DNA from: an uncultured Gammaproteobacteria bacterium
Lineage (GTDB): Bacteria; Patescibacteriota; Patescibacteriia; Magasanikbacterales; GWA2-37-8
Direction: 5' to 3'
Length of the DNA stretch: 64,000 bases
NCBI GenBank assembly: GCA_964540825.1
Contig: CAZINT010000002.1
Location: 64,477 to 128,476 of the forward strand
Both the position numbers and the translations under genes were made by a program. Below the pieces are notes generated by a model. That model ran no database searches, had not been told where the DNA came from, and saw only the letters and a program-made list of their open reading frames with translations. Of this stretch, positions 19,467 through 61,555 are shown in pieces (within the stretch, counting starts at the first letter, position 1; every line of letters starts with the position of its first letter).

Positions 19467-19474
19467 CTATAATC

Positions 19475-19924: not shown

Positions 19925-19950
19925 CCGCCCTCGCGCCGCGAGTTCGCCCC

Positions 19951-19980
19951 GGCGCACGACTCACCCTCGTGCGCCTTTAT
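19951..19980 (+). terminator. GC-rich hairpin terminator after the lipoprotein gene (first of two tandem hairpins)
   Basis: GGCGCACGA-ctcaccc-TCGTGCGCC followed by TTTAT. Confidence 0.6.
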
Positions 19981-19982
19981 CT

Positions 19983-20013
19983 AGAAGAGCTTAATGCATA
20001 GGCTCTTCTTTTA
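19983..20013 (+). terminator. second tandem terminator hairpin
   Basis: AGAAGAGC-12 nt-GCTCTTCT followed by TTTT. Confidence 0.6.
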
Positions 20014-20049
20014 GTTAAGGTCGCTTAATATTCACCTCACCCCCAAAAT

Positions 20050-21039
20050 ATGCTAGACTACTGGCATATGCAAAAATCTTCTACACCACTATTCAAACAC
20101 ATTCCTAATTTTCTTGATTACTGCGAAGTAGAAAAGGGCCTCTCCCCTACAACTACCAAAAATTATTACAACTTCCTCAAAATGTTTAAGGACTGGCTGG
20201 CTGACCAGTCCCTCACCAACCTTAAACCTCACGAACTCACGGCCGAACATATCTGGAATTACCGCCTCTACCTGTCGCGTAAAAAGGATAAAAAGACTAA
20301 TCAGCCCATCAAAAAAACCACCCAGAACTACTACCTTATCGCCTTGCGCAATCTGATGGCGTATTTTGCGACGCGGGATATCGTAGCCTTGCCAAGTGAC
20401 AAAATTCAACTCCCCAAATTAACTGAAAAAGAAAAACGAATTAAGTTCCTCAACTACGACCAGGTCAAAAAACTCATGACCATGCCGGATATGTCGACGA
20501 TCGAAGGCGTCCGAGATCGGGCAATCCTTGAGGTCCTCTTCTCTACCGGCATGCGTATCTCGGAGTTAACGTCGCTTAATATACGCCTCTTCGATATCCG
20601 CAATATTGTCGCTAAAAAAATTAAAGATTTGGAAATCAGTATTGCCGGTAAAGGCGGGTCGGTCCGCACCGTGTACTTCTCTACCGAAGCCCTTAATTGG
20701 CTCGGTAATTACCTTAAAACCCGCGTAAGCGACATGTACCCTCCCCTCTTTATTAACTACGCCAAAGCTCAAAAAGGCAGTGCTGAGCGTCGCCTGACCA
20801 CCCGCTCAATAGAGCGTGCTGTTAGGCGTTATGCTGGCATGGCCGGCCTCCCGGTTGACGCTACCCCGCATACCCTGCGCCACAGCTTCGCCACTGACCT
20901 TCTCGACCAGGGGGCGGACATGCGTTCGGTGCAGGAACTCTTGGGGCACAAAAATATTGTCACCACGCAGATTTATACGCATGTGACCAATAAAAAATTG
21001 CATGATGTACATGCAAAGTTTCATCGGGGGAATAAATAA
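20050..21039 (+). CDS. tyrosine site-specific recombinase, XerC/XerD family
   Basis: catalytic R (GMRISEL), H-x-x-R (HTLRHSFAT), H (LLGH), Y (TQIYTHV); C-terminal GADMRSVQELLGH...TTQIYTHV is typical of Xer recombinases. Confidence 0.85.
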   Translation: MLDYWHMQKSSTPLFKHIPNFLDYCEVEKGLSPTTTKNYYNFLKMFKDWLADQSLTNLKPHELTAEHIWNYRLYLSRKKDKKTNQPIKKTTQNYYLIALRNLMAYFATRDIVALPSDKIQLPKLTEKEKRIKFLNYDQVKKLMTMPDMSTIEGVRDRAILEVLFSTGMRISELTSLNIRLFDIRNIVAKKIKDLEISIAGKGGSVRTVYFSTEALNWLGNYLKTRVSDMYPPLFINYAKAQKGSAERRLTTRSIERAVRRYAGMAGLPVDATPHTLRHSFATDLLDQGADMRSVQELLGHKNIVTTQIYTHVTNKKLHDVHAKFHRGNK

Positions 21040-34560: not shown

Positions 34561-34926
34561 TCACAGGCCGCCGAAGCGCCTACCAGGAGAACCGGTACGC
34601 TCCCGCTCCTCATACAGGTCCGGCACGTCGACCAGAAGACCCGCCTCCATTGAGGCACGGCCAGCCTTATCGGCCTCCTCTCTACTCATTCGCTCATCGA
34701 GCTGGGCGTGCAGGTAGTCCGCCAGCAAGGACGTGACGATCGCCGGCTGCGTAGTGAGGTCGAAGGAGCCGTCGGGCTCGAACTTGAACCCGCTGCCGAG
34801 CAGCACATCCTTCGCATTCTTGAGGTGCTGACGGGCTGCCAGCCAGCGCCTCATAGCGGCCAAAGCCAGCTCAAAAATTTTGATGGCGCTCGTGATCTCC
34901 TCGTGAGAATCGAACTTTGGACCCAT
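34561..34926 (-). CDS. hypothetical protein (121 aa) in a GC-rich island (about 60% GC)
   Basis: SD GGAGGTG 7 nt upstream of ATG 34926; promoter TTGTCA-N17-TATATA upstream; GC3-biased codons unlike neighbours; no recognisable domain. Confidence 0.55.
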   Translation of the reverse strand: MGPKFDSHEEITSAIKIFELALAAMRRWLAARQHLKNAKDVLLGSGFKFEPDGSFDLTTQPAIVTSLLADYLHAQLDERMSREEADKAGRASMEAGLLVDVPDLYEERERTGSPGRRFGGL

Positions 34927-43945: not shown

Positions 43946-45033
43946 GTGTATTCGTTCTGTGCACGCGTTTTAGCTGCTTGGCCGAGCGATGTAGCTTGTG
44001 CCGGGTCAAGCAAAAGATCCGAGATAGCTGCGAGCATTGCTTCTTCGTTCGTGGGAGGCACTACGCGACCGGTAACCTTGTCGAGTACAGCTTCAGGAAC
44101 ACCACCGACTCCGCCCGCAACCACCGCGAGCCCACTGGCAGCAGCTTCCATGAAAACGGTTCCCCACCCTTCTTCGGTGGTGCTATCCGAACCTGCAAGC
44201 AACACAAACAGATCCGCAAGCTGATAGAACACCGGGAGTTCAAGCTGGTCAACTGAACCCAAAAACCTAATGACATGTTGCACGTTTGTTTTTGTTGCCA
44301 TCTCCACAATTCGGGCTTTTTCCGGCCCGTCGCCAATACAAATCCACACTAAATCCGGGAATTTTTCGAGGAGGCGCGGCAAAAGCCGGGTCAGAGTCGC
44401 ATACCCTTTACCAGGAACCATGCGACCAACACTCAGGAGTACTTTTTTACCCTGCAAAGCTAATTGAGATTTAAGTTTTTTAATTTTTTCCGAGTCTACT
44501 GTTTCAAAAAAATAATCAGCGGGAGCCGGATTAAGCACGCGAACCGGGGTTGGCAAAAAAATTGCTTTAGTAAATTTTTCAGCTAAAAACGAACTGTTAA
44601 CTACGACACTATGCGCTTCGGAAACAATTTTAATAAGATGCTTCCGTTTACGAGGGAAGGCAAGTGCATGGTCAAGATCTGTTCCATGCAGAAAAACTAT
44701 ATAGGGAACCTTGAAGAGCTTCTTAATGATTCGAGCAACATGCCCGCCCGGCAAAACTTGATGGACATAGATGGTGGCAATGGTCTCTTTTTTGACGATG
44801 CGGTAAACCTGCCACAGCATGCGTAGCCAATGGGGCCAGAGCAGCCAATACGGTTTATGACGAAAAACTTTCCAGGCATTCGCTGCATCAAATGATGCAG
44901 AACCTTTTATTTCTGGCGCATACACTATCGTTTCTTCAGCCAAAGTATGAGCGGCAAAATTGTAAACATAACTAGCAATACCACCAATTTGGGGTGGATA
45001 CTCAAGTGTAAGATGCAGTGTTTTATATATCAT
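43906..45033 (-). CDS. glycosyltransferase family 4 (GT-B fold)
   Basis: C-terminal EGWGTVFMEAAASGLAVVAGGVGGVPE motif. Confidence 0.85.
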   Translation of the reverse strand: MIYKTLHLTLEYPPQIGGIASYVYNFAAHTLAEETIVYAPEIKGSASFDAANAWKVFRHKPYWLLWPHWLRMLWQVYRIVKKETIATIYVHQVLPGGHVARIIKKLFKVPYIVFLHGTDLDHALAFPRKRKHLIKIVSEAHSVVVNSSFLAEKFTKAIFLPTPVRVLNPAPADYFFETVDSEKIKKLKSQLALQGKKVLLSVGRMVPGKGYATLTRLLPRLLEKFPDLVWICIGDGPEKARIVEMATKTNVQHVIRFLGSVDQLELPVFYQLADLFVLLAGSDSTTEEGWGTVFMEAAASGLAVVAGGVGGVPEAVLDKVTGRVVPPTNEEAMLAAISDLLLDPAQATSLGQAAKTRAQNEYTWQKQLLKFSRSL

Positions 45034-46463
45034 GTACGACGAAGTTTAAAACGAAATTCCTGAAGCATGGCCTTCGTAAGGCCGCCAGAAACATACAGAA
45101 GTGCGCCATAGCATACCACAGCCACAGGAATCGTAAAGAGCCAGTGGATACGCGGCTCCAGCAGCCACACGAGACCCCCCATGCCGGCCGCAGGCCAGAA
45201 AGTCTGATTGAAAAAACGGGCAAAATCTTTAAAGGGAAATGAAATTATTTTAACAATCGCAATAAATCCAACCAACCAAAGCATTAGATTGCTTATAAAC
45301 GCGGCCAAGGCAGCTCCACGAATACCAAAGCGAGGCAACATGATCAGATTAAGTGCCACGTTTATGACAAGTGCCATTGTGATTAACAGTGTTTGCGTTT
45401 TCTGTCTTCCAACAGCATTAAATAAAGCTCCATTAATAAGCGTCAAAAAAATAAAGACAAGCCCGGCTAATAAAATCTGCAACACCGGAATTGCCGGAGT
45501 ATATTTTATTCCATAAAAAGCTACGATAACCGGACGCGCCAAAACTCCAAGCCCGATAGCTAACGGAAATATAATCGTGAATAAATAACGATACGCTTTG
45601 GTAATCAGTTCCCCTATTTTACCCGGTTCTGTCAAAAACAAAGAACTAATTACTGGATACAAACTCGCCGCCAGAGCAACGGGAATAAACTGAAAAGCAA
45701 AGGTTGTTTTATACGGAACACTCCATAACCCCAACTCTAGAGGCGAAACCATTTTGGACATTAAAAGCGAGTCACTGTACGCGTAGAGGCGGCCAATTAC
45801 GCCAGCTAGAGCTATGGGCCAAGCAAGTTTTAAAAATGATGTGGCTATAGTGCTGTCAAAAGCATGCCTTAAGCTCATCGACTGCAAACGCCGCGCGACG
45901 ATGCTGGCATACACCAAATTACACAAGCTGGGAACTGTATAAGCAATAATAAGCGAGTACAGCGGCCAACGAAGATACAGGGCAAGCCCTCCAATGCCAA
46001 GCGTAAGCAATTGTGAAGAAACCATGCCAATAGCTTCAAAAAATAAATTTTTACGCGCACGCAGCACGCTGTAAAAAACAGTTTGTAAATTATCAAAAAA
46101 CATGGTTATACCAGACAGGCAAACAAGGAGTTTGAGCGACGCTGGATACTTTAAAATTTCAAGGGCGCTGAGTACTAATCCATACGCTAAAAAACCGAAT
46201 ATAATTTTTAACCAAAAAACTGTTGCGGCATAGGTACTGCTTTTTTCCGGAAACTGAGCCGCTTCGCGAGTGAGCGTATTTGCCAACCCAAAATCCGCCA
46301 CAACGCTAAAAATGGTTGTGAACGTTAAGGCAAAAAAATATTGACCGACATTTTCTACCCCCACCACCCGAGCCAAAAGCGTAAAATAAAAAAAGGAAAT
46401 AACCTTTTGGAGGACAGATGCGGCGGTTAAAAAAGACGTGTTTTGAGCAACAGAATACGCCAT
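45030..46463 (-). CDS. polysaccharide biosynthesis protein, Wzx-type flippase (MOP superfamily)
   Basis: 12-14 TM helices, MATE/Wzx-like N-terminus MAYSVAQNTSFLTAASVLQKVISFFY. Confidence 0.8.
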   Translation of the reverse strand: MAYSVAQNTSFLTAASVLQKVISFFYFTLLARVVGVENVGQYFFALTFTTIFSVVADFGLANTLTREAAQFPEKSSTYAATVFWLKIIFGFLAYGLVLSALEILKYPASLKLLVCLSGITMFFDNLQTVFYSVLRARKNLFFEAIGMVSSQLLTLGIGGLALYLRWPLYSLIIAYTVPSLCNLVYASIVARRLQSMSLRHAFDSTIATSFLKLAWPIALAGVIGRLYAYSDSLLMSKMVSPLELGLWSVPYKTTFAFQFIPVALAASLYPVISSLFLTEPGKIGELITKAYRYLFTIIFPLAIGLGVLARPVIVAFYGIKYTPAIPVLQILLAGLVFIFLTLINGALFNAVGRQKTQTLLITMALVINVALNLIMLPRFGIRGAALAAFISNLMLWLVGFIAIVKIISFPFKDFARFFNQTFWPAAGMGGLVWLLEPRIHWLFTIPVAVVCYGALLYVSGGLTKAMLQEFRFKLRRT

Positions 46464-46469
46464 GTAAAA

Positions 46470-46492
46470 AAGCTAGGAATACATCCTAGCTT
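46470..46492 (-). other. hairpin with T-run immediately upstream of the wzx start codon (terminator-like but leaves no room for a wzx promoter)
   Basis: AAGCTAGGA-ataca-TCCTAGCTT; on the minus strand followed by TTTTTT then ACATG (wzx ATG). Confidence 0.4.
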
Positions 46493-46536
46493 ACCAGATA
46501 CTGAGGTTTTTATCCATTGAACGAAGAAGGCACCCC

Positions 46537-46585
46537 CTTTCCCCCGTCTTAAAGTATAAAGCGGGTCGGGGGTGCCGAGATGCTC
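46537..46585. repeat. 49-nt GC-rich hairpin at the boundary of a GC-rich island
   Basis: GGCACCCCC (46537-46545) / GGGGGTGCC (46577-46585) perfect 9-bp arms, inner CCCG/CGGG. Confidence 0.5.
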
Positions 46586-46587
46586 CT

Positions 46588-46821
46588 CTAGTGCTGGAGC
46601 GGAACGAGGCGCTTGAGCTGCCCCGGGCGGCGCTTGGCGATCCGGGCCAAACGTTCCTGGCTACTCAGCCCGCGCTTGCGCTGGAGGATCGTCCGCGGCG
46701 GGTGACGCATCGTCCACTCGCCCTCACCACGGGTTCGTGCCCGCGGTTCACGCCTTAGTCGGCGTTCTTTCTTCTCCTTTCGCCGACCCTTTTCACGTCC
46801 CGGAACTTTTTCTCGTACCAT
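46588..46821 (-). CDS. very basic Arg/Lys-rich small protein (77 aa) in a GC-rich island
   Basis: SD AAGGAGG 5 nt before ATG 46821; promoter TTGACG-N17-TGgTATAGC upstream; about 40% R+K; no recognisable domain. Confidence 0.4.
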   Translation of the reverse strand: MVREKVPGREKGRRKEKKERRLRREPRARTRGEGEWTMRHPPRTILQRKRGLSSQERLARIAKRRPGQLKRLVPLQH

Positions 46822-47026
46822 TCGCTCCTCCTTATAAGAAGCCTTTGGATGCTATACCAAAATTGACCAGCTCGTCAAGCACTTGAGGTCATAAAAAATC
46901 TCATGGTACATAAGCAAAAATACCCTAAGATTAGTGGAGTACGCACTGTCGTACTCCCCAGGCTGCTTATTGAGAGCAGCGAGTCAACAAAGTCCCGGTC
47001 CGCGATCGCAGCGGACAGATCACGTA

Positions 47027-47515
47027 CTAGGGCACCGAATACGGAAACAGGTCGTTCCAAAGACCCTCTGTGCACTCGTTCGCACCTGTATACGCACGAA
47101 GCGTTATGTGGCCCTGCGCATCAACCAGCAGGCAGATCGGATACGGAACCAGCCAGCCCTTTTGTGCGAACAATTTACACCGCTCGTGATCTTTGCGCAG
47201 CTCGCAAAAGCGTGTCGAGATATCACGTCGGAACAGTTCCCATTCTTCTTGCGCTTCATTACCTGTGCCTTCTTCTTTGTGCACCGACGAGACGCTGATG
47301 AGTCCCGGGTGTTCATCGGCACGGGTTTTGAGCCAACCCATCGTCCACCAGCAAGCTTCGCAGTGGTTTCCCCCAAGAACTACAACCTCGTACTTCGTTT
47401 TTACCACAGGCTCGCTGTAGTTAAGTTGTTTCGCAACGAGCACGTGGCCCACAAACAGAATCGAAAAGAGGCCCGAGAAAAGCAAGAAAACTCTTGATTT
47501 GAGTAGCGTTGCCAT
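47027..47515 (-). CDS. secreted protein with CxxC motif (HCEACW), possible thiol-disulfide oxidoreductase-like
   Basis: signal peptide MATLLKSRVFLLFSGLFSILFVGHVLVA; VVVLGGNHCEACWW resembles a thioredoxin-fold active site; SD GGGGAAG before ATG; GC about 55%. Confidence 0.45.
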   Translation of the reverse strand: MATLLKSRVFLLFSGLFSILFVGHVLVAKQLNYSEPVVKTKYEVVVLGGNHCEACWWTMGWLKTRADEHPGLISVSSVHKEEGTGNEAQEEWELFRRDISTRFCELRKDHERCKLFAQKGWLVPYPICLLVDAQGHITLRAYTGANECTEGLWNDLFPYSVP

Positions 47516-47669
47516 CGTCTTCCCCGATTGTAAGGTTCAAGTTGACGCATTGCACGCTAGCACTTTTTTATACTTTTGAAAAGGGTTTTGGTGGATAAAA
47601 AAGCAGCTATTGCACTTTATTAAAAAACCATTTACCATTCTTAACAAGCAATCTACCCGGGAGTAAACG

Positions 47670-47879
47670 ATGACACTCGAACAGATGTTTGTAGAGTGCT
47701 CAAACCTGGCAGAAGGTGAAACAAAGACCTTTGTCTTCCCGCGGCCTGTAGCTCGCCGAAAGGTAGCTCGTCTGGCTGAACGCGTTATGGCTGAAAAACT
47801 TCGCCAAGGCGGCTATCACTCGGTCACGATTGACGGGCTGCACGATCGGTGGACTGCGACCTGCATTCCGGTCATTTAA
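47670..47879 (+). CDS. hypothetical small protein (69 aa) in the GC-rich island
   Basis: GGGAG 7 nt before ATG; divergent from the 47027-47515 gene; no recognisable domain. Confidence 0.35.
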   Translation: MTLEQMFVECSNLAEGETKTFVFPRPVARRKVARLAERVMAEKLRQGGYHSVTIDGLHDRWTATCIPVI

Positions 47880-47920
47880 TTATTGCTTTTTACGGCAGAA
47901 CATATCCAAACAGTTCCTTC

Positions 47921-47942
47921 CAGCTCCCACAACCGGGAGCTG
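47921..47942 (+). terminator. GC-rich hairpin after the 69-aa ORF
   Basis: CAGCTCCC-acaacc-GGGAGCTG followed by TTCTATTT. Confidence 0.4.
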
Positions 47943-47978
47943 TTCTATTTAAAAAACTATTGATTTTAATTTCTAAAA

Positions 47979-48005
47979 AAGCATGCCATTGGGCATGCTT
48001 TTTTG
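47979..48005. terminator. bidirectional rho-independent terminator (ends the ribosomal protein operon on the minus strand)
   Basis: AAAAAAGCATGCCattgGGCATGCTTTTTT. Confidence 0.8.
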
Positions 48006-48021
48006 ATGATGAAGTTTAAAA

Positions 48022-48429
48022 TTAACGTTTGCTCCACTGTGGTGCACGACGAGCTTTTTTCAAACCTGGTTTCTTGCGTTCCTTAACGCGAGCGTCGCGA
48101 GTAAGAAGACCAAGAGCTTTGAGCGTTTTTTTGAACTCTTCATTCCAGAGCACCAGGGCGCGTGAAAGGCCGAGCTGCACTGAGGTAGCCTGTCCTTTTT
48201 TACCGCCGCCAGCAACTTTAGCAGATACATCCAGATCTTTATCTTTGCCAAGTGCTTTGAGCGGAGCCAAGACAGTTTCCTGCCATTCAAAATAAGGGAA
48301 ATACTTTTCAAGCGGCTGACCATTTACAGTCACGGTGCCTTTACCTTTTTCAAGGCGAACGCGGGCAGAGGCAGATTTGCGGCGGCCAACAGCGCGTAGT
48401 TGATCGGTTTTAGTAGTAAGCTTTGTCAT
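48022..48429 (-). CDS. rpsI: 30S ribosomal protein S9
   Basis: GGGKKGQATSVQLGLSRAL and C-terminal ...RRAPQWSKR. Confidence 0.95.
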   Translation of the reverse strand: MTKLTTKTDQLRAVGRRKSASARVRLEKGKGTVTVNGQPLEKYFPYFEWQETVLAPLKALGKDKDLDVSAKVAGGGKKGQATSVQLGLSRALVLWNEEFKKTLKALGLLTRDARVKERKKPGLKKARRAPQWSKR

Positions 48430-48441
48430 ACAACGTGCAGT

Positions 48442-48798
48442 TTATTTAAAAGACAGGCGGAGAAGTCTAGCCTCACGCAGTTTATTTTTTGGAAGCATTT
48501 TCACCACAGCATGGCGGATAACATCTTCTGGTTTTTCAGCCATAACTTTCTTAACCGGAACGCGCTTCAACCCACCTGGATGCATCGTGTGGTGCAAAAA
48601 TTCTTTCTGATCAAGTTTCTTACCAGTAAACAAAACTTTGTCAGCGTTGATAACCACAACCTTGTCTCCCATATCACGGTGAGGCACAAAGCTGGCTTTG
48701 TGTTTGCCGCTGAGGAGCGTAGCGATCTTTGTGGCGAGGCGGCCAGGAGCCTGGTTTGTCGCATCAAGTTCGTGTTTTTTACGTTTAATACTAGCCAT
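48442..48798 (-). CDS. rplM: 50S ribosomal protein L13
   Basis: L13 signature and position upstream of rpsI. Confidence 0.9.
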   Translation of the reverse strand: MASIKRKKHELDATNQAPGRLATKIATLLSGKHKASFVPHRDMGDKVVVINADKVLFTGKKLDQKEFLHHTMHPGGLKRVPVKKVMAEKPEDVIRHAVVKMLPKNKLREARLLRLSFK

Positions 48799-49207: not shown

Positions 49208-50038
49208 TTATTTTTTCTTAGCCTTCTTAGCTTTTGGTTTTTTTTCAGTTTCATCATCACTTGCTTCATCTGCTGGCATTTCTTCCAGTGGTTCGCTAGC
49301 TGCTTCTTCGCTGGCAGCTTCCACACGTGCTGGAGCAAAATCGGCACTAGCGTTTACTTCATCTAAAATAATGTTGAAATGATTAATCAAAATCTGAGTA
49401 CTCTGAAGCAAAGCATCCTTTGGAGCGATGGTTCCGTTGGTTTCAATGTTGATGATCAGGCGTTCAAAGTTTGTGATGTCACCAACACGGGTGTATTCAA
49501 CTTTATACCCAACGTCTTTAACCGGAGTATAGACCGAGTCCATCACGATAGTACCGAGGTCATAGTTCTGTTTATCTTTTTCTTCAACCGGTTTATAACC
49601 GCGTCCTTTGCCAACCGTAACGTCGATGTCGAGCGTCTTGTTGCTGGTTAAATGAGCAATTACTAATTCCGGATTAACGATTTCAACATTAGAGTTAGCT
49701 TGAAAATCAGCGGCCGTAACCACTCCCGGGCCTTTTTTAACCAGATTCAAAACAACCGGTTCGTCGCTAAAAATTTTAACGGCCAGCTGTTTGAGGTTAA
49801 GCATGAGCTCCATGGCGTCTTCTTTGACACCTTCTACCGTACTAAACTCGTGCGAAACACCTTTTACTTTAAAGTGTTCAACAGCCGAGCCTGGCAGCGA
49901 AGACAAAAGCACACGACGGAGCGCGTTTCCGAGCGTCGTTCCATACCCGTGATAGCACGGTGTAATAACAACCGAACCGGAGTTCGGTGTCTGCCCCTCT
50001 TGGAATTCCACTTTGGAAGGAAGAAGAAAATTCTCCAT
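49208..50038 (-). CDS. rpoA: DNA-directed RNA polymerase alpha subunit, N-terminal domain only (no recognisable alpha-CTD)
   Basis: alpha-NTD motifs (TLGNALRRVLLSSLPGSAV); ends after about 235 aa in an acidic/lysine tail (ASEEAASEPLEEMPADEASDDETEKKPKAKKAKKK) instead of the HhH alpha-CTD. Confidence 0.85.
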   Translation of the reverse strand: MENFLLPSKVEFQEGQTPNSGSVVITPCYHGYGTTLGNALRRVLLSSLPGSAVEHFKVKGVSHEFSTVEGVKEDAMELMLNLKQLAVKIFSDEPVVLNLVKKGPGVVTAADFQANSNVEIVNPELVIAHLTSNKTLDIDVTVGKGRGYKPVEEKDKQNYDLGTIVMDSVYTPVKDVGYKVEYTRVGDITNFERLIINIETNGTIAPKDALLQSTQILINHFNIILDEVNASADFAPARVEAASEEAASEPLEEMPADEASDDETEKKPKAKKAKKK

Positions 50039-52820: not shown

Positions 52821-54671
52821 TTATTCCAAGACCGCTTTAATACGGCGCACTCCGGCGCTGATCGCCTCTTCTTTAACAATTTTAAACTTTCCCATAGTAC
52901 CAGTCCGCTCAACATGCGGACCACCGCAGACTTCGCGACTATACGTCGGAGCTGCCGGATCAGCAGCGGCCATTTCATTAGCGTCCCCAACTGTATATAC
53001 TTTTACTTTTTCTTGATATTTATCTTCAAACAGTCCAATCGCACCTTTTGCTTTTGCTTCTTCAAAACTCATTTCAGCAAAACTAACCGGGTAATCATGG
53101 GCAATCGCACCATTAATCATATCTTCAGCCAGCTTAATTTGTTCGGCAGTCAATTTTTCCGGGTGCGCAAAATCAAAGCGCATGCGTTCTTGAGTAATAT
53201 TACTTCCCCGCTGCGTAGCGTGAGGACCGAGAATTTTAAGAAGTGTCGCATGGAGTAGATGTGTCGCAGTGTGATACTTGGTAGACATTTCGCTGTGATC
53301 CGCAAGACCGCCGGCAAATTTCTGTTCTGCACCCACACGAGATTTTTCCTGATGCTCTTTAAACGCTGCTTCAAAACCAGCCACATCAACCGTGAGGGCA
53401 TTTTCGAGCGCGAGCTCCTGAGTCATTTCGAGTGGGAAGCCGTAGGTATCATACAACTTGAAGGCATGTTTACCAGAAATTTCTTTAATAAGGACGCCGG
53501 TTTTTTCAAATGCCATTCTAAAGCCGTTAACTAATTTTTCAAATTCTTTAAGGCCCTGCTCAACGGTATTGTGAAACTTGGCTTCTTCGCGGGCCATTTC
53601 GGTTATCACAAATTCGCGGTTACGTTTGAGTTCTGGATAGACATCACCATAAATCTCGATCACCGTTTCGGCAATTGAAGAGCAGACATGGTCTTTGATG
53701 CCAAGCAAGCGTCCGTGGCGAACGGCGCGGCGAATCAGGCGGCGAACAATATACCCCTGATCAACATTGCTTGGGGCAACACCTTTATCATCGCCCATGA
53801 TCATGGTTGCAGTACGCAAATGATCAGCGACAATTCGCATGGAGCGCGTTACGTCTTTGTTTTCAATATATTCTTTACCGGAAACGGTTTGGATTTTTTG
53901 AATGATCGCCCACATCGTGTCAATCTGGAAGGCATCAGCAAAACCGTTCATAACCACGAGTGTGCGTTCAAGCCCCATGCCCGTATCAACATTTTGCTGT
54001 TCAAGCGGCCTAAAAGTACCATCTTCATTTTTAAAATACTGCATGAAGACATCGTTCCAAATTTCAAGCCAGTTGTCTTCGTCGTTGCCTGGATTACTAT
54101 TTTCGGGTGGAAATTCCCCTTCCCCCATCCAATAAAACATTTCGGTGTCTGGGCCACATGGCCCCGTTGTACCAGCCGGACCCCACCAATTATTTTTCTT
54201 CGGGAGATACGCAATTTTATGCTCGGGCATGCCGAGCGCCTTCCACTTGGCAGCAGACTCATCGTCACGCGGCGCATCATTGTCGCCGGCAAACACCGAT
54301 ACCGCCAATTTACGCAGATCGATTCCCAAATATTCTTTGCTGGTCAAAAATTCAAAGCTCCATTCAATCGCTTCGTTTTTAAAATAATCACCCAAAGACC
54401 AGTTACCCATCATTTCAAAAAAGGTCATGTGACGCGCATCCCCCACCTCATCTATATCTTGGGTACGGATACATTTTTGTACGTTGGTAAGACGGTTACC
54501 GGACGGATGTTTCTGGCCCAATAAATACGGAACCAGCGGATGCATGCCGGCAGTTGTAAACAAAACCGTCGGATCATTGTCCGGAATAACCGAAGCCGAA
54601 GCAATAGCCGCATGGCCCTTGCTTTGGAAAAAAGAAATGTATTTTTGACGGAGTTCCTGGCTCGTAAGCAT
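52821..54671 (-). CDS. alaS: alanyl-tRNA synthetase, short form lacking the C-terminal C-Ala domain
   Basis: N-terminal MLTSQELRQKYISFFQSKGH...DPTVLFTTAGM; editing-domain motifs HTATHLLH and CGGPHV near the C-terminus; about 617 aa versus about 870 aa for canonical AlaRS. Confidence 0.9.
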   Translation of the reverse strand: MLTSQELRQKYISFFQSKGHAAIASASVIPDNDPTVLFTTAGMHPLVPYLLGQKHPSGNRLTNVQKCIRTQDIDEVGDARHMTFFEMMGNWSLGDYFKNEAIEWSFEFLTSKEYLGIDLRKLAVSVFAGDNDAPRDDESAAKWKALGMPEHKIAYLPKKNNWWGPAGTTGPCGPDTEMFYWMGEGEFPPENSNPGNDEDNWLEIWNDVFMQYFKNEDGTFRPLEQQNVDTGMGLERTLVVMNGFADAFQIDTMWAIIQKIQTVSGKEYIENKDVTRSMRIVADHLRTATMIMGDDKGVAPSNVDQGYIVRRLIRRAVRHGRLLGIKDHVCSSIAETVIEIYGDVYPELKRNREFVITEMAREEAKFHNTVEQGLKEFEKLVNGFRMAFEKTGVLIKEISGKHAFKLYDTYGFPLEMTQELALENALTVDVAGFEAAFKEHQEKSRVGAEQKFAGGLADHSEMSTKYHTATHLLHATLLKILGPHATQRGSNITQERMRFDFAHPEKLTAEQIKLAEDMINGAIAHDYPVSFAEMSFEEAKAKGAIGLFEDKYQEKVKVYTVGDANEMAAADPAAPTYSREVCGGPHVERTGTMGKFKIVKEEAISAGVRRIKAVLE

Positions 54672-54679
54672 ACAATATT

Positions 54680-55786
54680 TTAAATAGTTTCGATCACTCC
54701 CCCACCCAAACATTCGCCATCCTTGTAGAAGACCGCAAATTGACCCGGGGTGGGTGCGCGTTGCGGTTCATTAAAAACGAGCGTTTGCGCAACTGCGGTG
54801 CTTGATGTGTCTTCTTGAAGCACCGCCTTTTGGAGCGGTTGGCGATGACGGAGTCGCACTTCACATTCTAATGGAAACGTAGGCGGTTGTCCACTAATCC
54901 AATGAATTTGGGTAAGCGATATTTCCTTTTTATAGAGCAAGGGATCAGTATCAAAACCAACAACAAGCTCGTTAGTCGCAAAATTTTTACCAACCACGTA
55001 CAAGGGCTTCGTATCTTGCCCCTTAACAGCCAACGATTTAGTTCCGGTTACACCAAAACTGCGCTGACCAATCGTATAAAATGCCAAACCCTCGTGGACA
55101 CCCAATACTTCACCGCTCGACGTAACAATTTTTCCCGGAGTTGGCTTAATGCGCGTTTGCAAAAATTCCTTCATAGGAACTTCACCGACAAAACAGATTC
55201 CCATACTTTCTTCTTTTTCAGCCACAGGCAAATTAAATTTTTTTGCCAATTCGCGAACTTCTGGTTTAGTGTATTCACCCACCGGAAATAGTGCGTGCGA
55301 CAACTGCTGCTGAGTAAGCTGATGAAGAAAGTACGTTTGGTCTTTATTTTCATCCTTTGCTTGAATCAAATGGACAATGCCTACATCTGAAACAGCGGTG
55401 CGAGCATAGTGCCCGGTAGCCAAATATTCAAACCCCAGTTCCCTTGCCTTATCGAGCCAGAAACCAAATTTAATATATTTATTACACAGCACATCAGGAT
55501 TAGGGGTACGCCCGGCTTCGTATTCACTGAACATGTATTCCAAAACTTTCGCCTGATATTCCTTTGTAAAATCAAATTTTAAAATCGGAATGCCGATACT
55601 TGCCGCAACGCGGACAGCATCTTGGTACTCCGGTACCCAGCAGGACTCCCCAAACTTATTTTGGCCGTCATAATTAATCATGTAGGCAGCAGTAACATCA
55701 TACCCTTGCGAAACCAAAAGCTCCGCAGCGACTGCAGAATCTACACCCCCAGAAAGGGCCGTGAGAATTTTTACTTGAGGTTTCAT
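54680..55786 (-). CDS. mnmA: tRNA-specific 2-thiouridylase MnmA
   Basis: PP-loop SGGVDSAVAA at N-terminus; MnmA-like central and C-terminal beta-barrel regions. Confidence 0.9.
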   Translation of the reverse strand: MKPQVKILTALSGGVDSAVAAELLVSQGYDVTAAYMINYDGQNKFGESCWVPEYQDAVRVAASIGIPILKFDFTKEYQAKVLEYMFSEYEAGRTPNPDVLCNKYIKFGFWLDKARELGFEYLATGHYARTAVSDVGIVHLIQAKDENKDQTYFLHQLTQQQLSHALFPVGEYTKPEVRELAKKFNLPVAEKEESMGICFVGEVPMKEFLQTRIKPTPGKIVTSSGEVLGVHEGLAFYTIGQRSFGVTGTKSLAVKGQDTKPLYVVGKNFATNELVVGFDTDPLLYKKEISLTQIHWISGQPPTFPLECEVRLRHRQPLQKAVLQEDTSSTAVAQTLVFNEPQRAPTPGQFAVFYKDGECLGGGVIETI

Positions 55787-57708: not shown

Positions 57709-57993
57709 ATGTCAGGTTTTACAAAAGCACTACGCGCACTTACCAATCCTTGCATGCGTCCCGGTCAGGAGCCCGGCAAGCTCTGTACGGGACTTCGGAT
57801 TGTTCCGGGTGATCAAGTCGTCCGAAAAGAAGACCCGCCAAAAGTGGCCGCACAACGTCTGCAAGTCGTGGAAGGGGCAGACCACGACATGTTCGCAGTC
57901 TGCGACGAGTGCGGCGATTGCAGGAGAATCGGGAGTGTTTCCCAAATCCTGGGACTGGCACCTCCCAAGGCCCTCACCACCTGTGAGGAATAA
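57709..57993 (+). CDS. hypothetical Cys-containing small protein (94 aa) in a GC-rich island
   Basis: GGGAGG 9 nt upstream of ATG 57709; 6 Cys including CDECGDC; GC-rich codons; followed by a GC hairpin. Confidence 0.45.
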   Translation: MSGFTKALRALTNPCMRPGQEPGKLCTGLRIVPGDQVVRKEDPPKVAAQRLQVVEGADHDMFAVCDECGDCRRIGSVSQILGLAPPKALTTCEE

Positions 57994-59143: not shown

Positions 59144-61555
59144 TTGTATATGAATAAAAATTCGCTACCAACGATTCTGGTAATCTTGGGCGCAACCGGC
59201 GATTTGATGACTAAAAAAATTGTCCCCGCGCTTTTTCATTTACACCTTGAAAATAATTTACCGGCTTTATTTCAAATTGTCGGCTATTCTCACCGCGCAC
59301 TTAACAACGACTCCTTTCGGGAACACCTAAAAGCAATTATTGAAAAAGACCCCCGTTACAATATAACCGACCCCGCAGAAGTCGGAAAATTTTTACACCG
59401 CTTTGTTTTTCAGCAAGGAGATTTTGAAAAACAGTCCGACTACGTTGCGCTGGCCAAGCGCTTGGGCGCAACGGATGTAGAATGGAAAGCCTGCTCGAAT
59501 AAATTGTTTTACCTCGCTGTTCCTCCGGACTTCTTGAAAACAATCGTTAATCACCTGGCGTCTTCGGAACTCACCAAACCCTGTTCCCCCGAAGAGGGCT
59601 GGACCCGGGTCTTGGTTGAAAAGCCTTTTGGGCGCGATTTGGCTACTGCAGAAAAACTGGATGAACTTCTCGGCAAACTTTTTAAAGAGGAACAAATTTA
59701 TCGCATCGACCACTATTTGGCCAAAGAAATGCTTCAGAATATTTTGACGTTTCGTTTTTCCAACAATCTCTTTGAAAAAATTTGGAACAATCAGTTTATC
59801 GAGCAGATTGAAATTAAACTGTGGGAAACTTTAGGCGTAGAACTCCGCGGACCGTTTTATGATGGTGTTGGGGCGCTACGCGATATGGGACAAAATCATA
59901 TCATGCAGATGCTGGCACTCGTTACCATGGAACGACCTAATGCTTTTACGGCCGCTGCGATTCGCGATCAGCGCGTGGCAATTTTAAAAACACTTCCCGA
60001 GCTTACCAAAAAAGAAGTTGCGGAAAATACGCTTCGCGCACAGTATGAAAGCTACCAGACGATTAAAGGCGTATCCCCCACTTCTACCACTGAGACCTAT
60101 TTTAAAGTTAAAACGGAACTGACGTCACCCCGCTGGAAGGGCGTGCCGATTATTATGGAAAGCGGCAAACGCATGGGCGAAAAGAAAAAAGAAATTATTA
60201 TAACCTTTAAACACGCTGCCCCGTGCCTGTGCCCGCCCGGCGACAAGCACAACAAAAATCAAATTATTTTTGGGCTTGATCCGGTAGAAGGTATTACGAT
60301 TAAGTTCTGGTCAAAAGTTCCCGGGCTTGATTTTAAAATCAACGAACGCACCATCGACTTCATGCTCCGCACGGAAGCAAGCACATCACAGTATGTTGAA
60401 GAATATAAAAAACTTTTGCTTGACAGCATAACGGGCGACCAAACACTCTTCAATGATACGCGCGAAGTACGCGAAATGTGGCGGTTTATCGATTCGATTA
60501 GCGATGTTTGGACAAAACAAATTCCAAAACTCCAAAGCTATGCGCCTGATACAAATACCATCGCAACCACCCACACTTTTGGATCACTCGAAAATACTTC
60601 GAAAGCCCCGCTTAAAAAAATGGGTTTAATCGGTCTTGGTAAAATGGGCGGCAACTTAGCGAGACGTTTGCACTCTCAAGGATGGGACATCACCGCCTTC
60701 AATCGCACTGCCGAAGTTACCCGAGAAATTGAAACCGAAGGAATTAACGGCGCGTATTCGCTACCTGATCTCGTCAAAAGCCTACCAACTCCACGCATTA
60801 TTTGGCTGATGGTGCCTGCAGGTAAACCGGTTGACGACATGCTGTTCGGTAAAACTGGACTCGTACCACTCCTTAAAAAAGGTGATATTGTTATTGACGG
60901 CGGAAATTCATTTTATGGCGACGCCGCTAAACGGGCAGCAAAACTCAAAAAGTTCGGTATACACTTTTTGGACTGTGGTACATCAGGGGGACCAGGCGGC
61001 GCACTGGCCGGCCCATGCCTCATGATCGGCGGAGAACGAAAAATATTTGAAAAAATTGAATATCTCTTCCGCGATTTGGCTGCCCCTGACGCCTATCAAT
61101 TCTTTGATGGGTTCGGCGCCGGGCATTTTGTGAAGATGGTTCACAATGGTATCGAATACGGCATGATGCAAGCCCTGGCCGAAGGATTTGCGGTGATGAA
61201 AAAATCCAAGTTTAAACTTGATTTAGAAAAGGTGACTGATATTTATAACCATGGCAGCGTTATTGAATCGAGACTCGTCGGCTGGCTAGCTTCCGGCTTT
61301 AAAGCCTACGGACAGGATTTGAAAGGCATATCCGGGTCAGTGAACTACACCGGCGAAGGAGAATGGACAGTGCAAGCAGCCAAAAAATTAAAAGTTCCAG
61401 CGCCAGTTATTGAAGATTCATTTAAATTCCGCGTGGCATCACAAAAAAAACCAAGTTACACGGGGCAGCTCTTGTCGACACTGCGCAATCAATTTGGCGG
61501 GCACAACGCAGTACACACCAAGGCAGCCAAACCTCTAGTTAAAAAGAAAAAATAA
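59144..61555 (+). CDS. fusion protein: glucose-6-phosphate 1-dehydrogenase (N-terminal about 490 aa) + 6-phosphogluconate dehydrogenase-like domain (C-terminal about 300 aa)
   Basis: G6PD motifs ILGATGDLMTKK and RIDHYLAKE; C-terminal MGLIGLGKMGGNLARRL NAD(P)-binding N-terminus of 6PGDH and GTSGGPGGALAGPCLMIGG; single uninterrupted ORF. Confidence 0.85.
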   Translation: MYMNKNSLPTILVILGATGDLMTKKIVPALFHLHLENNLPALFQIVGYSHRALNNDSFREHLKAIIEKDPRYNITDPAEVGKFLHRFVFQQGDFEKQSDYVALAKRLGATDVEWKACSNKLFYLAVPPDFLKTIVNHLASSELTKPCSPEEGWTRVLVEKPFGRDLATAEKLDELLGKLFKEEQIYRIDHYLAKEMLQNILTFRFSNNLFEKIWNNQFIEQIEIKLWETLGVELRGPFYDGVGALRDMGQNHIMQMLALVTMERPNAFTAAAIRDQRVAILKTLPELTKKEVAENTLRAQYESYQTIKGVSPTSTTETYFKVKTELTSPRWKGVPIIMESGKRMGEKKKEIIITFKHAAPCLCPPGDKHNKNQIIFGLDPVEGITIKFWSKVPGLDFKINERTIDFMLRTEASTSQYVEEYKKLLLDSITGDQTLFNDTREVREMWRFIDSISDVWTKQIPKLQSYAPDTNTIATTHTFGSLENTSKAPLKKMGLIGLGKMGGNLARRLHSQGWDITAFNRTAEVTREIETEGINGAYSLPDLVKSLPTPRIIWLMVPAGKPVDDMLFGKTGLVPLLKKGDIVIDGGNSFYGDAAKRAAKLKKFGIHFLDCGTSGGPGGALAGPCLMIGGERKIFEKIEYLFRDLAAPDAYQFFDGFGAGHFVKMVHNGIEYGMMQALAEGFAVMKKSKFKLDLEKVTDIYNHGSVIESRLVGWLASGFKAYGQDLKGISGSVNYTGEGEWTVQAAKKLKVPAPVIEDSFKFRVASQKKPSYTGQLLSTLRNQFGGHNAVHTKAAKPLVKKKK

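What the first reader, a model, noticed from the sequence alone, without database searches (positions are those of the whole stretch)
46470..47950. Island 4: three GC-rich small genes (Arg-rich peptide, secreted CxxC protein, 69-aa ORF) abutting the wzx-GT4-GT2 glycan operon
The 77-aa product is about 40% Arg/Lys and follows a strong SD and TTGACG-N17-TGgTATAGC promoter. A 162-aa product has a signal peptide and a VVVLGGNHCEACWW thioredoxin-like motif. A divergent 69-aa ORF ends at a GC hairpin. The hairpin plus T-run at 46470-46492 leaves no space for a separate wzx promoter, so the Arg-rich gene may be co-transcribed with (or its terminator may gate) the surface-polysaccharide operon.
Basis: partly seen in the sequence, partly recalled or inferred. 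Interest (0 to 1): 0.55.

Follow-up and report, generated by a model that had tools for sequence, protein, structure and literature searches.

The report
Foreign-type small genes beside glycan operon
Three small genes sit between a surface-sugar operon and a ribosomal-protein operon; two of them form a 1.1-kb lineage-specific insert of probably foreign origin, and they do not control the sugar operon, which keeps its own conserved promoter.

Summary

**Are they genes?**
- The 69-aa ORF is a real gene. It occurs in three species, and all 12 differences between two strains are synonymous.
- The Arg-rich 77-aa ORF is also real. A syntenic 74-aa homologue exists in one other species (50% identity, dN<dS), although the DNA no longer aligns.
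- The 162-aa ORF has no relative among about 15 billion proteins. Its strand is the best of six frames. It has an N-terminal membrane anchor, and its CxxC motif, cis-Pro motif and strand/helix order fit a thioredoxin fold. All the fold evidence is weak.

**Is it an island?** Window 46517-47621 (the 77-aa and 162-aa genes) is absent from one relative. In another, a different secreted Cys-rich gene replaces part of it.

**Is wzx co-transcribed or gated?** This is not supported.
- A −35/−10 pair (TGGAWA-N17-TGnTAAGCT) upstream of wzx is conserved in all relatives, including the one without the insert.
- The 46470-46492 hairpin is conserved with wzx, not with the Arg-rich gene.
- The Arg-rich gene has its own GC-rich terminator.

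**New observation.** Core genes here lack Shine-Dalgarno sequences (2 of 42). The small GC-rich island genes nearly all have one (10 of 11).

The finding is an ordinary accessory islet in an unusual translational setting.

The parts
45030..46463 (-). wzx-type flippase, first gene of the wzx-GT4-GT2 operon (context)
   Evidence: Pfam Polysacc_synt E 8e-27. Syntenic in L005 and L006/L009.
46464..46492 (-). 9-bp hairpin AAGCUAGGA-N5-UCCUAGCUU plus U6, ending 6 nt before the wzx AUG. Read as an insulating terminator that overlaps the wzx -10.
   Evidence: Terminator-like hit. Folds. Kept in the window, strain 2, L005 and 7 of 9 pairs in L006, with G-U and G-C replacements at the top pair.
46488..46516 (-). 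Inferred wzx promoter: -35 TGGATA (46516-46511), 17-nt spacer, TGg + -10 TAAGCT (46493-46488)
   Evidence: Hexamers and 17-nt spacing are invariant while the spacer varies, in 4 sequences from 3 species. Coordinates checked. No transcript data.
46517..47621 (.). Lineage-variable insert (the island proper) between the wzx promoter and the 69-aa gene promoter
   Evidence: DNA homology to L005 stops at 46516 and resumes at 47622. L006/L009 has only about 90 nt here. Inter-strain divergence is 0.45% against 1.5% in flanking core genes, Fisher p=0.012.
46519..46576 (-). Terminator of the 77-aa gene: GGCACCCCC...GGGGGUGCC stem followed by UUCUUCGUUC
   Evidence: MFE and centroid fold, z=-4.0. The same architecture follows the L005 homologue, z=-5.1.
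46588..46821 (-). 77-aa Arg-rich protein gene (pI 12, net charge +20)
   Evidence: L005 syntenic 74-aa homologue: BLASTP E 2e-8, 50% identity over 52 aa. Codon-position identity is 62/56/37%, pN 0.40 against pS 0.72. No other relatives.
46827..46833 (-). Shine-Dalgarno AAGGAGG of the 77-aa gene
   Evidence: AAGGAG is kept at the same distance in L005 although the flanks differ.
46849..46878 (-). Promoter-like site of the 77-aa gene (TTGACG ... TGgTATAGC/TAGCAT)
   Evidence: A pattern match only.
46936..46957 (-). Hairpin GGAGUACG-N6-CGUACUCC downstream of the 162-aa gene (possible terminator)
   Evidence: The U-rich tail is interrupted, so this is weak.
47027..47515 (-). 162-aa species-specific ORFan: N-terminal membrane anchor or signal, then a CxxC (C51-E-A-C54) thioredoxin-like domain
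   Evidence: Found only as itself in the 5.8-billion word-indexed search and the 1.84-billion phmmer search. Best of six frames. The one inter-strain change is at codon position 3. The AF2 secondary-structure order is that of a thioredoxin fold. Foldseek top hits are thioredoxins, but E>=0.1.
47610..47663 (+). Promoter (TTGCAC-N17-TACCAT) and SD (GGGAG) of the 69-aa gene
   Evidence: Conserved in L005 (TTGACT-17-TACTAT) and L006. GGAG is invariant.
47670..47879 (+). 69-aa clade-conserved protein of unknown function (alpha-beta-alpha-beta-beta)
   Evidence: Homologues at 91% and 71% identity. 12 of 12 inter-strain substitutions are synonymous, 11 at codon position 3, p=4.7e-5. AF2 pLDDT 87.8. 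No significant fold match.
47921..48004 (.). Hairpin 47921-47942 and bidirectional terminator 47975-48004, shared by the convergent 69-aa gene and rpsI
   Evidence: The weak Rfam hits here are generic terminator look-alikes below gathering score.

Best explanation
**What it is.** Window 46517-47621 is a lineage-specific accessory insert of about 1.1 kb. It lies between two divergent promoters: that of the wzx-GT4-GT2 glycan operon and that of a clade-conserved 69-aa gene. It carries two self-contained single-gene units. Each has its own promoter-like site and a ribosome-binding motif (clear for the 77-aa gene, weak for the 162-aa gene). The 77-aa gene has a clear terminator hairpin; the 162-aa gene has only a weak candidate.

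**The two genes in the insert.**
- One encodes a 77-aa, extremely basic cytoplasmic protein. I infer that it binds nucleic acid through its Arg-rich segment and a conserved Trp/His-Pro-Arg/QRKRGL block.
- The other encodes a 162-aa protein that I infer is held in the membrane by its N-terminal helix. It would expose a thioredoxin-fold domain outside the cell, whose C-E-A-C pair exchanges disulfides with exported proteins, as TlpA, ResA and Etrx proteins do.

**Likely origin.** Both genes, and the resident 69-aa gene, carry foreign-type signatures: high GC and GC3, ATG starts, and Shine-Dalgarno motifs in a genome whose core genes have none. The most likely origin is therefore horizontal acquisition. 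The 69-aa gene would have arrived earliest and the 162-aa gene latest.

**Relation to wzx.** The glycan operon is not driven or gated by the insert. wzx keeps its own promoter. The hairpin plus U6 at 46470-46492 overlaps the -10 element. Together with the GC hairpin after the 77-aa gene, it acts as a tandem terminator that shields wzx from transcription arriving from upstream. That upstream side includes the co-oriented ribosomal-protein operon.

**Shown:** gene reality for the 69-aa and 77-aa ORFs, variability of the insert, conservation of the wzx upstream block and hairpin, and the SD contrast.

**Inferred:** the promoter assignment, terminator function, thioredoxin activity, nucleic-acid binding and foreign origin.
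For: **Insert variability**
- L006/L009 has wzx, then about 200 nt, then the 69-aa homologue, then rpsI.
- L005 has a 74-aa Arg-rich homologue plus an unrelated 88-aa Cys-rich putative lipoprotein on the other strand.

**Gene reality**
- 69-aa gene: with 12 of 12 substitutions synonymous.
- 77-aa gene.
- 162-aa gene.

**Independent transcription units**
-.
- wzx promoter and hairpin conservation, including the species without the insert.

**Thioredoxin-like reading**
- order is strand, CxxC at the helix N-terminus, helix, strand, two helices, strand, strand, helix.
- nearly all of the top 50 PDB hits are thioredoxins or anchored thioredoxin-like proteins (Etrx2, FetE), with probability up to 0.9.
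- an unforced global alignment puts CEAC on the CGPC of E. coli TrxA, and P125 on the cis-Pro76.

**Foreign-type signature**
- GC3 0.53-0.68 against 0.43.
- SD in 10 of 11 island genes against 2 of 42 core genes (p=3.6e-8); T at -1 in 1 of 11 against 30 of 42 (p=2.7e-4).
- low inter-strain divergence of the insert.
Against: - No donor or homologue was found for the 162-aa or 77-aa proteins in any collection. Horizontal transfer therefore rests on composition and signals only.
- The 162-aa model has low confidence (pLDDT 52). All fold and sequence similarities to thioredoxins are non-significant.
- The -10 element TAAGCT matches the consensus at only 3 of 6 positions. The promoter is inferred from four sequences of three species, with no transcript data.
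- Without an outgroup, insertion cannot be told from deletion in the L006 lineage.
- SD motifs conserved across species fit a functional native class as well as they fit recent import.
Confidence: 0.55

Rival explanations
1. The Arg-rich gene and wzx form one regulatory unit. Transcription from the 77-aa promoter reads into wzx, and the hairpin(s) act as an attenuator. The Arg-rich protein might act as an arginine-rich-motif RNA binder, like phage lambda N, to allow read-through.
For: - Same strand, only 124 nt apart, with two hairpins between the genes.
- The Arg-rich run is followed by a conserved Trp, which recalls arginine-rich motif peptides. This resemblance is from my own knowledge and was not tested.
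- The Arg-rich gene sits directly upstream of wzx in both species that have it.
- Complementary 10- to 14-mers link the 162-aa transcript to the 77-aa terminator region.
Against: - wzx has the same conserved upstream block and hairpin in a species with no Arg-rich gene.
- The hairpin loop differs between strains and species (UGUAU, AUAU, UAUGU), which is unlike a specific protein-binding loop.
- The GC hairpins after the 77-aa and 74-aa genes share no sequence.
- No similarity to any known antiterminator family was found.
Confidence: 0.1
2. The 162-aa ORF is not a functional gene. It would be a decaying remnant or a chance ORF in GC-rich imported DNA, possibly with one of the plus-strand ORFs (131 or 187 aa) as the real product.
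For: - No homologue anywhere.
- Its codon score (0.11) is below the lowest core gene (0.14).
- It has only a weak SD (GGGGA).
- Public gene calls disagree: the 131-aa plus-strand ORF was called on L002, and the 162-aa ORF on L001 and L003.
- Only one informative substitution exists.
Against: - The minus frame is best under both core and island codon models. The plus ORFs score negative.
- The ORF is intact in both strains.
- An anchor, a strand, CxxC at a helix start, a cis-Pro before a strand, and a terminal helix in the right order are unlikely in a random ORF.
- The plus ORFs lack both an SD and the host start context.
Confidence: 0.15
3. The SD-led, GC-rich small genes are not recent imports. 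They are a native class translated by a separate, SD-dependent route in a host whose bulk translation ignores SD. This would resemble Bacteroidia, where ribosomes lacking bS21 read the SD of rpsU.
For: - SD is conserved at the same position in three species for the 69-aa gene, and in two species for the Arg-rich gene, while the flanks diverge.
- The class recurs at five or more places in the window and in L005.
- Published precedent for SD-blind ribosomes with a few SD-led genes: PMC7797042, PMC9976891.
Against: - GC3 reaches 0.95 in one island gene, and that gene has a tyrosine recombinase next to it, which points to import.
- Presence and absence vary between close relatives.
- The 16S 3' end of this organism is unknown. 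About half of Parcubacteria lack the anti-SD motif (PMC9297842), in which case the SDs would be inert.
Confidence: 0.15

Closest known systems
Membrane-anchored extracytoplasmic thioredoxin-like proteins (TlpA/ResA/CcmG; pneumococcal Etrx1/2; Campylobacter FetE)
   Same: - N-terminal anchor followed by a small domain whose secondary-structure order is that of a thioredoxin fold.
- CxxC at the start of the first helix.
- Pro followed by a hydrophobic strand and a D-x-x-G turn.
- An insertion between strand 2 and the cis-Pro loop.
- The top Foldseek hits include Etrx2 (4hqz) and FetE (8t4c).
   Different: - No sequence or profile similarity to any thioredoxin, Redoxin, AhpC-TSA or DsbA family.
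- The active site is H-C-E-A-C-W rather than W-C-x-P-C.
- No partner gene (CcdA/DsbD, MsrAB or cytochrome maturation) lies nearby.
- The protein is known from a single species.
Small genomic islets of horizontally acquired ORFan genes at intergenic hot spots
   Same: - Atypical GC and codon use.
- Presence or absence among close relatives at one fixed site.
- Each gene carries its own expression signals.
   Different: - No integrase, transposase, tRNA, flanking direct repeats or attC sites at this site.
- No donor is detectable.
- The genes also differ from the host in translation-initiation signals.
SD-blind translation with rare SD-led genes in Bacteroidia (rpsU/bS21 autoregulation; PMC7797042, PMC9976891)
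   Same: A genome whose core genes, including ribosomal-protein genes, lack SD, while a few genes keep a strong conserved SD.
   Different: - The organism is probably not a Bacteroidia. Its RpoA lacks a C-terminal domain hit, its AlaRS is short, and its gene order differs.
- The SD-led genes are accessory ORFans, not rpsU.
- The 77-aa protein shows no similarity to bS21.
- The state of the anti-SD is unknown.
Arginine-rich-motif RNA-binding proteins (phage lambda/P22 N, HIV Rev/Tat)
   Same: A short, highly basic, probably disordered protein with an Arg run followed by a conserved Trp. Its gene lies next to RNA hairpins. The resemblance is recalled from my own knowledge and was not tested.
   Different: - No sequence relationship.
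- No boxB-like conserved loop.
- There is no evidence that the protein acts on the neighbouring hairpins.

Membership tests
Thioredoxin-fold superfamily (TlpA/ResA/Etrx-like, anchored) | CxxC at the N-terminus of helix 1, directly after strand 1 | tested here: met
   C51-E-A-C54 follows the predicted strand 42-47, and the helix starts at 53. The model has low confidence in this region.
Thioredoxin-fold superfamily (TlpA/ResA/Etrx-like, anchored) | Conserved cis-proline loop preceding strand 3 | tested here: inconclusive
   V-P-Y-P125 is followed by strand 127-131. P125 aligns with TrxA Pro76 in an unforced global alignment, but the alignment score is not significant (z=1.8, P=0.064). Cis geometry cannot be tested.
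Thioredoxin-fold superfamily (TlpA/ResA/Etrx-like, anchored) | Significant sequence or profile match to Thioredoxin, Redoxin, AhpC-TSA or DsbA models, or to solved members | tested here: not met
   No Pfam or NCBIfam hit, even at E<=10 on the mature domain. PDB phmmer gives only an unrelated hit at E 0.5. BLASTP against TrxA gives E 0.84.
Thioredoxin-fold superfamily (TlpA/ResA/Etrx-like, anchored) | Three-dimensional fold match to solved thioredoxin-fold proteins | tested here: inconclusive
Thioredoxin-fold superfamily (TlpA/ResA/Etrx-like, anchored) | Export signal or membrane anchor placing the domain outside the cytoplasm | tested here: met
   K6 and R8, then about 20 hydrophobic residues (Kyte-Doolittle 19-mer mean 2.4), predicted as helix 2-31 with pLDDT 75-92. 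There is no lipobox Cys.
Thioredoxin-fold superfamily (TlpA/ResA/Etrx-like, anchored) | Thiol-disulfide oxidoreductase activity | not testable with these tools
   Needs a biochemical assay.
DsbA family | Thioredoxin fold with a large helical insertion domain, and a match to the DSBA profile | tested here: not met
   No DSBA family hit. The predicted insertion is only two helices, 86-118.
Intrinsic (Rho-independent) terminator, 46470-46492 | GC-containing stem-loop immediately followed by a U-run | tested here: met
   9 pairs (4 G-C), loop of 5, then UUUUUU. It folds and is conserved. The number of such sites in the region is not above the shuffled expectation. Function was not tested.
Sigma-70-type promoter upstream of wzx | -35 and -10 hexamers at 16-18 nt, conserved across species, with a free spacer | tested here: inconclusive
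   TGGAWA-N17-TGnTAAGCT is invariant in 4 sequences while the spacer varies. The -10 matches the consensus at 3 of 6 positions and fails the scan's threshold. There is no transcription-start data.
Ribosomal protein bS21 (for the 77-aa protein) | Profile similarity to bS21 | tested here: not met
   hhalign of alignment A1 against E. coli bS21 gives probability 0.06. No Pfam Ribosomal_S21 hit.
Integron gene cassette | attC site with RYYYAAC / GTTRRRY cores at the cassette end, and an integron integrase nearby | tested here: not met
   The only core-site match lies inside the 162-aa ORF. The nearest tyrosine recombinase is 26 kb away.
Known RNA families | Rfam covariance-model match | tested here: not met
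   No hit at gathering score in the window. In 45500-48600 there are only sub-threshold terminator look-alikes at 47919-48007. No tRNA or tmRNA.

The most novel reading that the evidence does not exclude
Island 4 may be one instance of a genome-wide two-regime arrangement. In an organism whose core genes initiate without Shine-Dalgarno (with U at -1 instead), a set of small, GC-rich ORFan genes keeps canonical SDs that are conserved across species. Many of these genes encode secreted Cys- or Pro-rich proteins. Under this reading, the host ribosome still reads SDs and uses them as a separate translational channel for accessory or imported genes. This would be comparable to bS21-dependent SD blindness in Bacteroidia, but applied to a whole class of lineage-specific genes.
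Probability: 0.15. Interest if true: 0.7.

Novelty: new member of a known kind. Interest (0 to 1): 0.38.

Why it matters
Taken alone, the region is an ordinary accessory islet: an ORFan anchored thioredoxin-like protein, a tiny basic protein limited to two species, and a conserved hypothetical protein. The suggested regulatory link to the glycan operon does not hold.

The context is more useful. The locus shows, within a few hundred bases and across three related genomes, genes with and without Shine-Dalgarno signals side by side. That makes it a compact test case for two questions:
- How does an SD-independent bacterium, probably from the Candidate Phyla Radiation, express imported SD-led genes?
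- Is start-site context a better marker of foreign genes than GC content in such genomes?

It also warns annotators: public gene calls disagree on which strand is coding in this region.

Tried and rejected
**Structured RNA instead of the GC-rich ORFs.** No Rfam hit and no tRNA or tmRNA. Rejected.

**Homologues of the 162-aa protein.**
- Word-indexed search of 5.8 billion sequences.
- Full phmmer of 1.84 billion representatives.
- PDB, viral contigs, plasmid and phage DNA.
- Only the protein itself was found.

**Homologues of the 77-aa family.**
- Protein search.
- Degenerate-pattern scans of genome, metagenome and viral contigs.
- PDB profile search.
- Only the L005 copy was found, and that came from synteny.

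**Family libraries.** Pfam, NCBIfam, PHROGs and PADLOC gave nothing for any small protein.

**bS21 idea for the Arg-rich protein.** It is small and basic with a strong SD in an SD-less genome. hhalign rejected the idea.

**Integron cassette or mobile element.**
- No attC cores at the boundaries.
- No flanking direct repeats.
- No integrase at the site.

**Alternative plus-strand ORFs.** Negative codon scores and no start signals.

**Fold searches.**
- The 69-aa model (pLDDT 88) has no significant PDB or viral match.

**More relatives of the 69-aa family.** The metagenome scan found none. The genome scan returned only two MAG contigs: the L005 contig already in hand and the full contig of the genome already sampled as L006.

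**Organism identity.** Not resolved.
- The record titles say 'uncultured Gammaproteobacteria'. Gene order and content argue against this.
- The MAGs come from Polish wastewater study SRP286056 (PMC9405806).
Full report
**1. What is in the sequence**

The region lies between wzx and rpsI. wzx (45030-46463, minus strand) is the first gene of a wzx-GT4-GT2 operon, with Wzy on the other strand. rpsI (48022-48429, minus strand) is the last gene of an rpsM...rpoA-rplQ-rplM-rpsI block.

- 77 aa (46588-46821, minus);
- 162 aa (47027-47515, minus);
- 69 aa (47670-47879, plus).

GC is 0.55-0.60 over 46450-47350, against 0.445 for the window.

The other described features are also present:
- the strong SD (AAGGAGG) and the TTGACG-type promoter-like site of the 77-aa gene;
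- the hydrophobic N-terminus and the VVVLGGNHCEACWW motif of the 162-aa product;
- the hairpin after the 69-aa ORF;
- the hairpin plus T6 at 46470-46492.

Small corrections: Arg+Lys is 36%, not 40%, and the promoter spacing is 16 or 18 nt, not 17. The region contains no known RNA family, tRNA or tmRNA.

**2. Are the ORFs genes?**

*Comparison material.* The same genome appears in two public assemblies (L001, L002, L004; 100% identity). A second strain at about 98% identity is covered by L003 and L007.

*69-aa gene.* The two strains differ at 12 positions in this gene. Eleven are at codon position 3, and the proteins are identical (binomial p=4.7e-5). The gene also occurs in two other species at 91% and 71% identity. 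It is a real gene under purifying selection.

*77-aa gene.* Database searches found only a 99% variant. The relative L005 (GCA_964510495.1), however, has a 74-aa ORF in the same position and orientation next to wzx.
- BLASTP with composition correction gives E 2e-8, with 50% identity over 52 residues. The shared block is RREP[RK]AR..W...H.PR.I.QRKRGL[ST]..ER.
- The DNA is not alignable by blastn.
- Identity by codon position is 62/56/37%. Fifteen of 28 identical residues use different codons. pN is 0.40 against pS 0.72. No other frame is conserved as well.

This is also a real gene, but the family is known from only two species.

*162-aa gene.* It has no relative at all:
- only itself among 5.8 billion clustered proteins;
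- only itself in a full phmmer of 1.84 billion representatives;
- nothing in PDB, viral contigs, plasmids or phages.

Support for the minus-strand reading is indirect:
- it is the best of six frames under both a core-gene and an island-gene codon model, and the plus-strand 131- and 187-aa ORFs score negative;
- the ORF is intact in both strains, and the single difference falls on its third codon position;
- the product has a coherent architecture (next section).

Public gene callers disagree here. The 131-aa plus-strand ORF was called on L002, and the 162-aa minus-strand ORF on L001 and L003.

**3. What the proteins look like**

*162-aa protein.*
- It has K6 and R8 followed by about 20 hydrophobic residues, predicted as a confident helix, and no lipobox. 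This is a signal-anchor or a signal peptide.
- The rest was modelled from the single sequence at low confidence (pLDDT 52). The order of elements is: strand; C51-E-A-C54 at a helix N-terminus; helix; strand; two helices; Pro125; strand; turn; strand; helix. That is the thioredoxin-fold order, with an insertion as in TlpA/ResA-type proteins.
- Foldseek against the PDB returns almost only thioredoxins and anchored thioredoxin-like proteins (Etrx2, FetE) in the top 50. The best E-value is 0.1.
- An unforced global alignment with E. coli TrxA puts CEAC on CGPC and P125 on cis-Pro76, but the score is not significant (z=1.8).
- No profile or sequence method supports membership.

I therefore say that it probably works like an anchored extracytoplasmic thiol-disulfide oxidoreductase. 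I do not file it as a proven member of that family.

*77-aa protein.* It has pI 12, net charge +20 and no Cys. It shows no similarity to bS21 or to any library family. Nucleic-acid binding is inferred from composition alone.

*69-aa protein.* It gives a confident alpha-beta-alpha-beta-beta model (pLDDT 87.8). It has no significant structural neighbour.

**4. Comparative anatomy of the wzx-rpsI gap**

| Genome | Content between wzx and rpsI |
|---|---|
| L006/L009 (one genome; wzx DNA 67% identical) | Gap of only about 545 nt: wzx, about 200 nt, the 69-aa homologue, a terminator, rpsI |
| L005 (wzx DNA 77% identical) | wzx; 74-aa Arg-rich gene; an unrelated 88-aa Cys-rich putative lipoprotein on the other strand; the 69-aa gene; a 62-aa ORF; a NUDIX gene; an 80-aa ORF; rpsI |

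DNA homology between the window and L005 stops at 46516 and resumes at 47622. The variable segment is therefore 46517-47621. It is bounded on one side by the conserved wzx upstream block and on the other by the conserved promoter of the 69-aa gene.

Between the two strains, the insert differs at 5 of 1105 positions (0.45%). Flanking core genes differ at 1.5% (Fisher p=0.012). This fits a younger or recently exchanged segment.

The site has no integrase, no flanking direct repeats and no attC cores. Without an outgroup, gain in the window/L005 branch cannot be formally told from loss in the L006 branch.

**5. The wzx question**

The alignment of the wzx upstream region from the window, strain 2, L005 and L006 says otherwise. 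It shows invariant TGGA-A (46516-46511) and TG-TAAGCT (46496-46488), separated by exactly 17 nt of variable sequence.

That pattern is expected of a -35 and an extended -10. It is present in L006, where the only upstream neighbour is the divergent 69-aa gene, so wzx must have its own promoter there.

The -10 overlaps the 5' arm of the hairpin. Transcripts that start at this promoter would begin inside the loop and would lack the full hairpin.

The hairpin itself is retained in all four sequences. L006 keeps 7 of 9 pairs, and there is one G-U and one G-C replacement at the top pair. It therefore belongs to wzx, not to the Arg-rich gene.

The Arg-rich gene has its own terminator, a 9-bp all-G/C-ended stem followed by UUCUUCGUUC at 46576-46519. 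The L005 homologue has an unrelated but equally strong stem in the same place.

The simplest reading is tandem terminators. They would insulate the wzx promoter from transcription coming from upstream. In all three species that upstream side includes the co-oriented, highly expressed ribosomal-protein operon. This is an inference, because no transcript data exist.

**6. An unexpected contrast in translation signals**

Of 42 core genes in the window, including rpsI, rplM, rplQ, rpoA and rpsD, only 2 have a GGAG, GAGG or AGGA motif at -16 to -5. Thirty of the 42 have T at -1. The same holds for the core genes of L005 and L009.

The small GC-rich genes behave differently. Nearly all have ATG starts with AAGGAG-type SDs. 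These genes are:
- the 77-aa and 69-aa genes of this island;
- four ORFs in other GC-rich islands of the window: 1838-2038, 19475-19924, 34561-34926 and 57709-57993;
- the 74-, 88-, 62- and 80-aa ORFs of L005.

Overall, 10 of 11 have an SD (p=3.6e-8) and only 1 of 11 has T at -1 (p=2.7e-4). The 162-aa gene is the exception, with only GGGGA.

The SDs of the 69-aa and Arg-rich genes are conserved across species while their flanks diverge.

Published work offers two possible backgrounds:
- ribosomes that keep the anti-SD but hide it, as in Bacteroidia, with rpsU as the SD-led exception (PMC7797042, PMC9976891);
- loss of the anti-SD motif in about half of Parcubacteria (PMC9297842).

The 16S rRNA of this organism is not in the data, so I cannot decide between them.

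Either way, the island genes form a distinct class by three independent criteria: GC3, SD and start context. That is why I favour foreign origin. The rival view, that they form a native SD-dependent class, remains open.

**7. Verdict**

- The genes are real or plausibly real.
- A thioredoxin-like function is plausible but unproven.
- Co-transcription with wzx, or gating of it, is not supported.

The locus is an accessory islet of a known kind in an uncultured wastewater bacterium (SRP286056; PMC9405806). That bacterium is probably a Candidate Phyla Radiation member, despite the 'Gammaproteobacteria' label on the related records.

Its main value is as a compact example of SD-led genes embedded in an SD-less genome.

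Noticed in passing
whole window; core gene starts, e.g. 48429, 48798, 49172, 50038, 50658: Core genes, including ribosomal-protein genes, essentially lack Shine-Dalgarno motifs (2 of 42). They have T at position -1 in 30 of 42 cases, which is an unusual start-codon context. The same holds in L005 and L009.
   Followed up: partly
window 1838-2038 (-), 19475-19924 (+), 34561-34926 (-), 57709-57993 (+): Four further GC-rich (0.56-0.68) small ORFs have ATG starts and strong SDs. Pfam was searched only for the two ORFs at 19421-19924 and 34561-34926 and found nothing. They are a 66-aa signal-peptide and Pro-rich protein; a 149-aa putative lipoprotein (LPLFGC) with 17 Cys and GC3 of 0.95; a 121-aa acidic protein; and a 94-aa protein with 6 Cys.
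   Followed up: partly
window 20050-21039 (+): A tyrosine recombinase (Phage_integrase, E 2.6e-38) lies directly beside the 68%-GC island at 19400-20050. This suggests an integrative origin for that island.
   Followed up: no
window 47567-47601 versus 46507-46516, 46551-46560, 46786-46795; also 47265-47278 versus 46520-46533: Three adjacent 10-mers upstream of the 162-aa gene are perfectly complementary to three separate sites: the wzx -35 region, the loop of the 77-aa terminator, and the start of the 77-aa ORF. A 14-mer inside the 162-aa ORF complements the 3' arm of that terminator. Such clustering occurred in 0 of 500 dinucleotide shuffles, though the test was post hoc. The one strain difference in these arms (46555) would keep a G-U pair. 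This is unexplained.
   Followed up: partly
window 47738-47810: All 12 synonymous differences between the two strains in the 69-aa gene fall within 73 nt (16% divergence), while the adjacent intergenic DNA is identical. This looks like a short recombination tract from a more distant allele.
   Followed up: no
window 49208-50038 (-), especially 49241-49314: RpoA is only 276 aa. Its Pfam hits cover only the N-terminal domains (RNA_pol_L, RNA_pol_A_bac). It ends in an acidic, Lys-rich tail instead of a recognisable alpha C-terminal domain. The tail is a hot spot of indels and substitutions between strains.
   Followed up: no
L005 8263-9339: In the relative L005, the gap between the 69-aa gene and rpsI holds three extra genes: an SD-led 62-aa ORF, a host-type NUDIX hydrolase and an SD-led 80-aa ORF. 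The whole wzx-rpsI gap is therefore a variable region on both sides of the 69-aa gene.
   Followed up: partly
L005 7513-7779 (+): At the site of the 162-aa gene, L005 carries an unrelated 88-aa putative lipoprotein with 9 Cys, on the opposite strand. It is GC-rich (0.60) and SD-led. Secreted Cys-containing proteins recur in these islands.
   Followed up: partly
L008/L009 record titles; window 52821-54713, 59144-61555: The related MAG records are titled 'uncultured Gammaproteobacteria'. Several features look more like a Candidate Phyla Radiation genome: the infA-rpsM-rpsK-rpsD-rpoA-rplQ-rplM-rpsI order, a short 630-aa AlaRS, a fused Zwf-Gnd (803 aa) and the truncated RpoA. The label is probably wrong.
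   Followed up: partly
window 46903-47515: Public gene calls for the identical sequence disagree on the coding strand. The 131-aa plus-strand ORF was called on one assembly, and the 162-aa minus-strand ORF on two others.
   Followed up: yes
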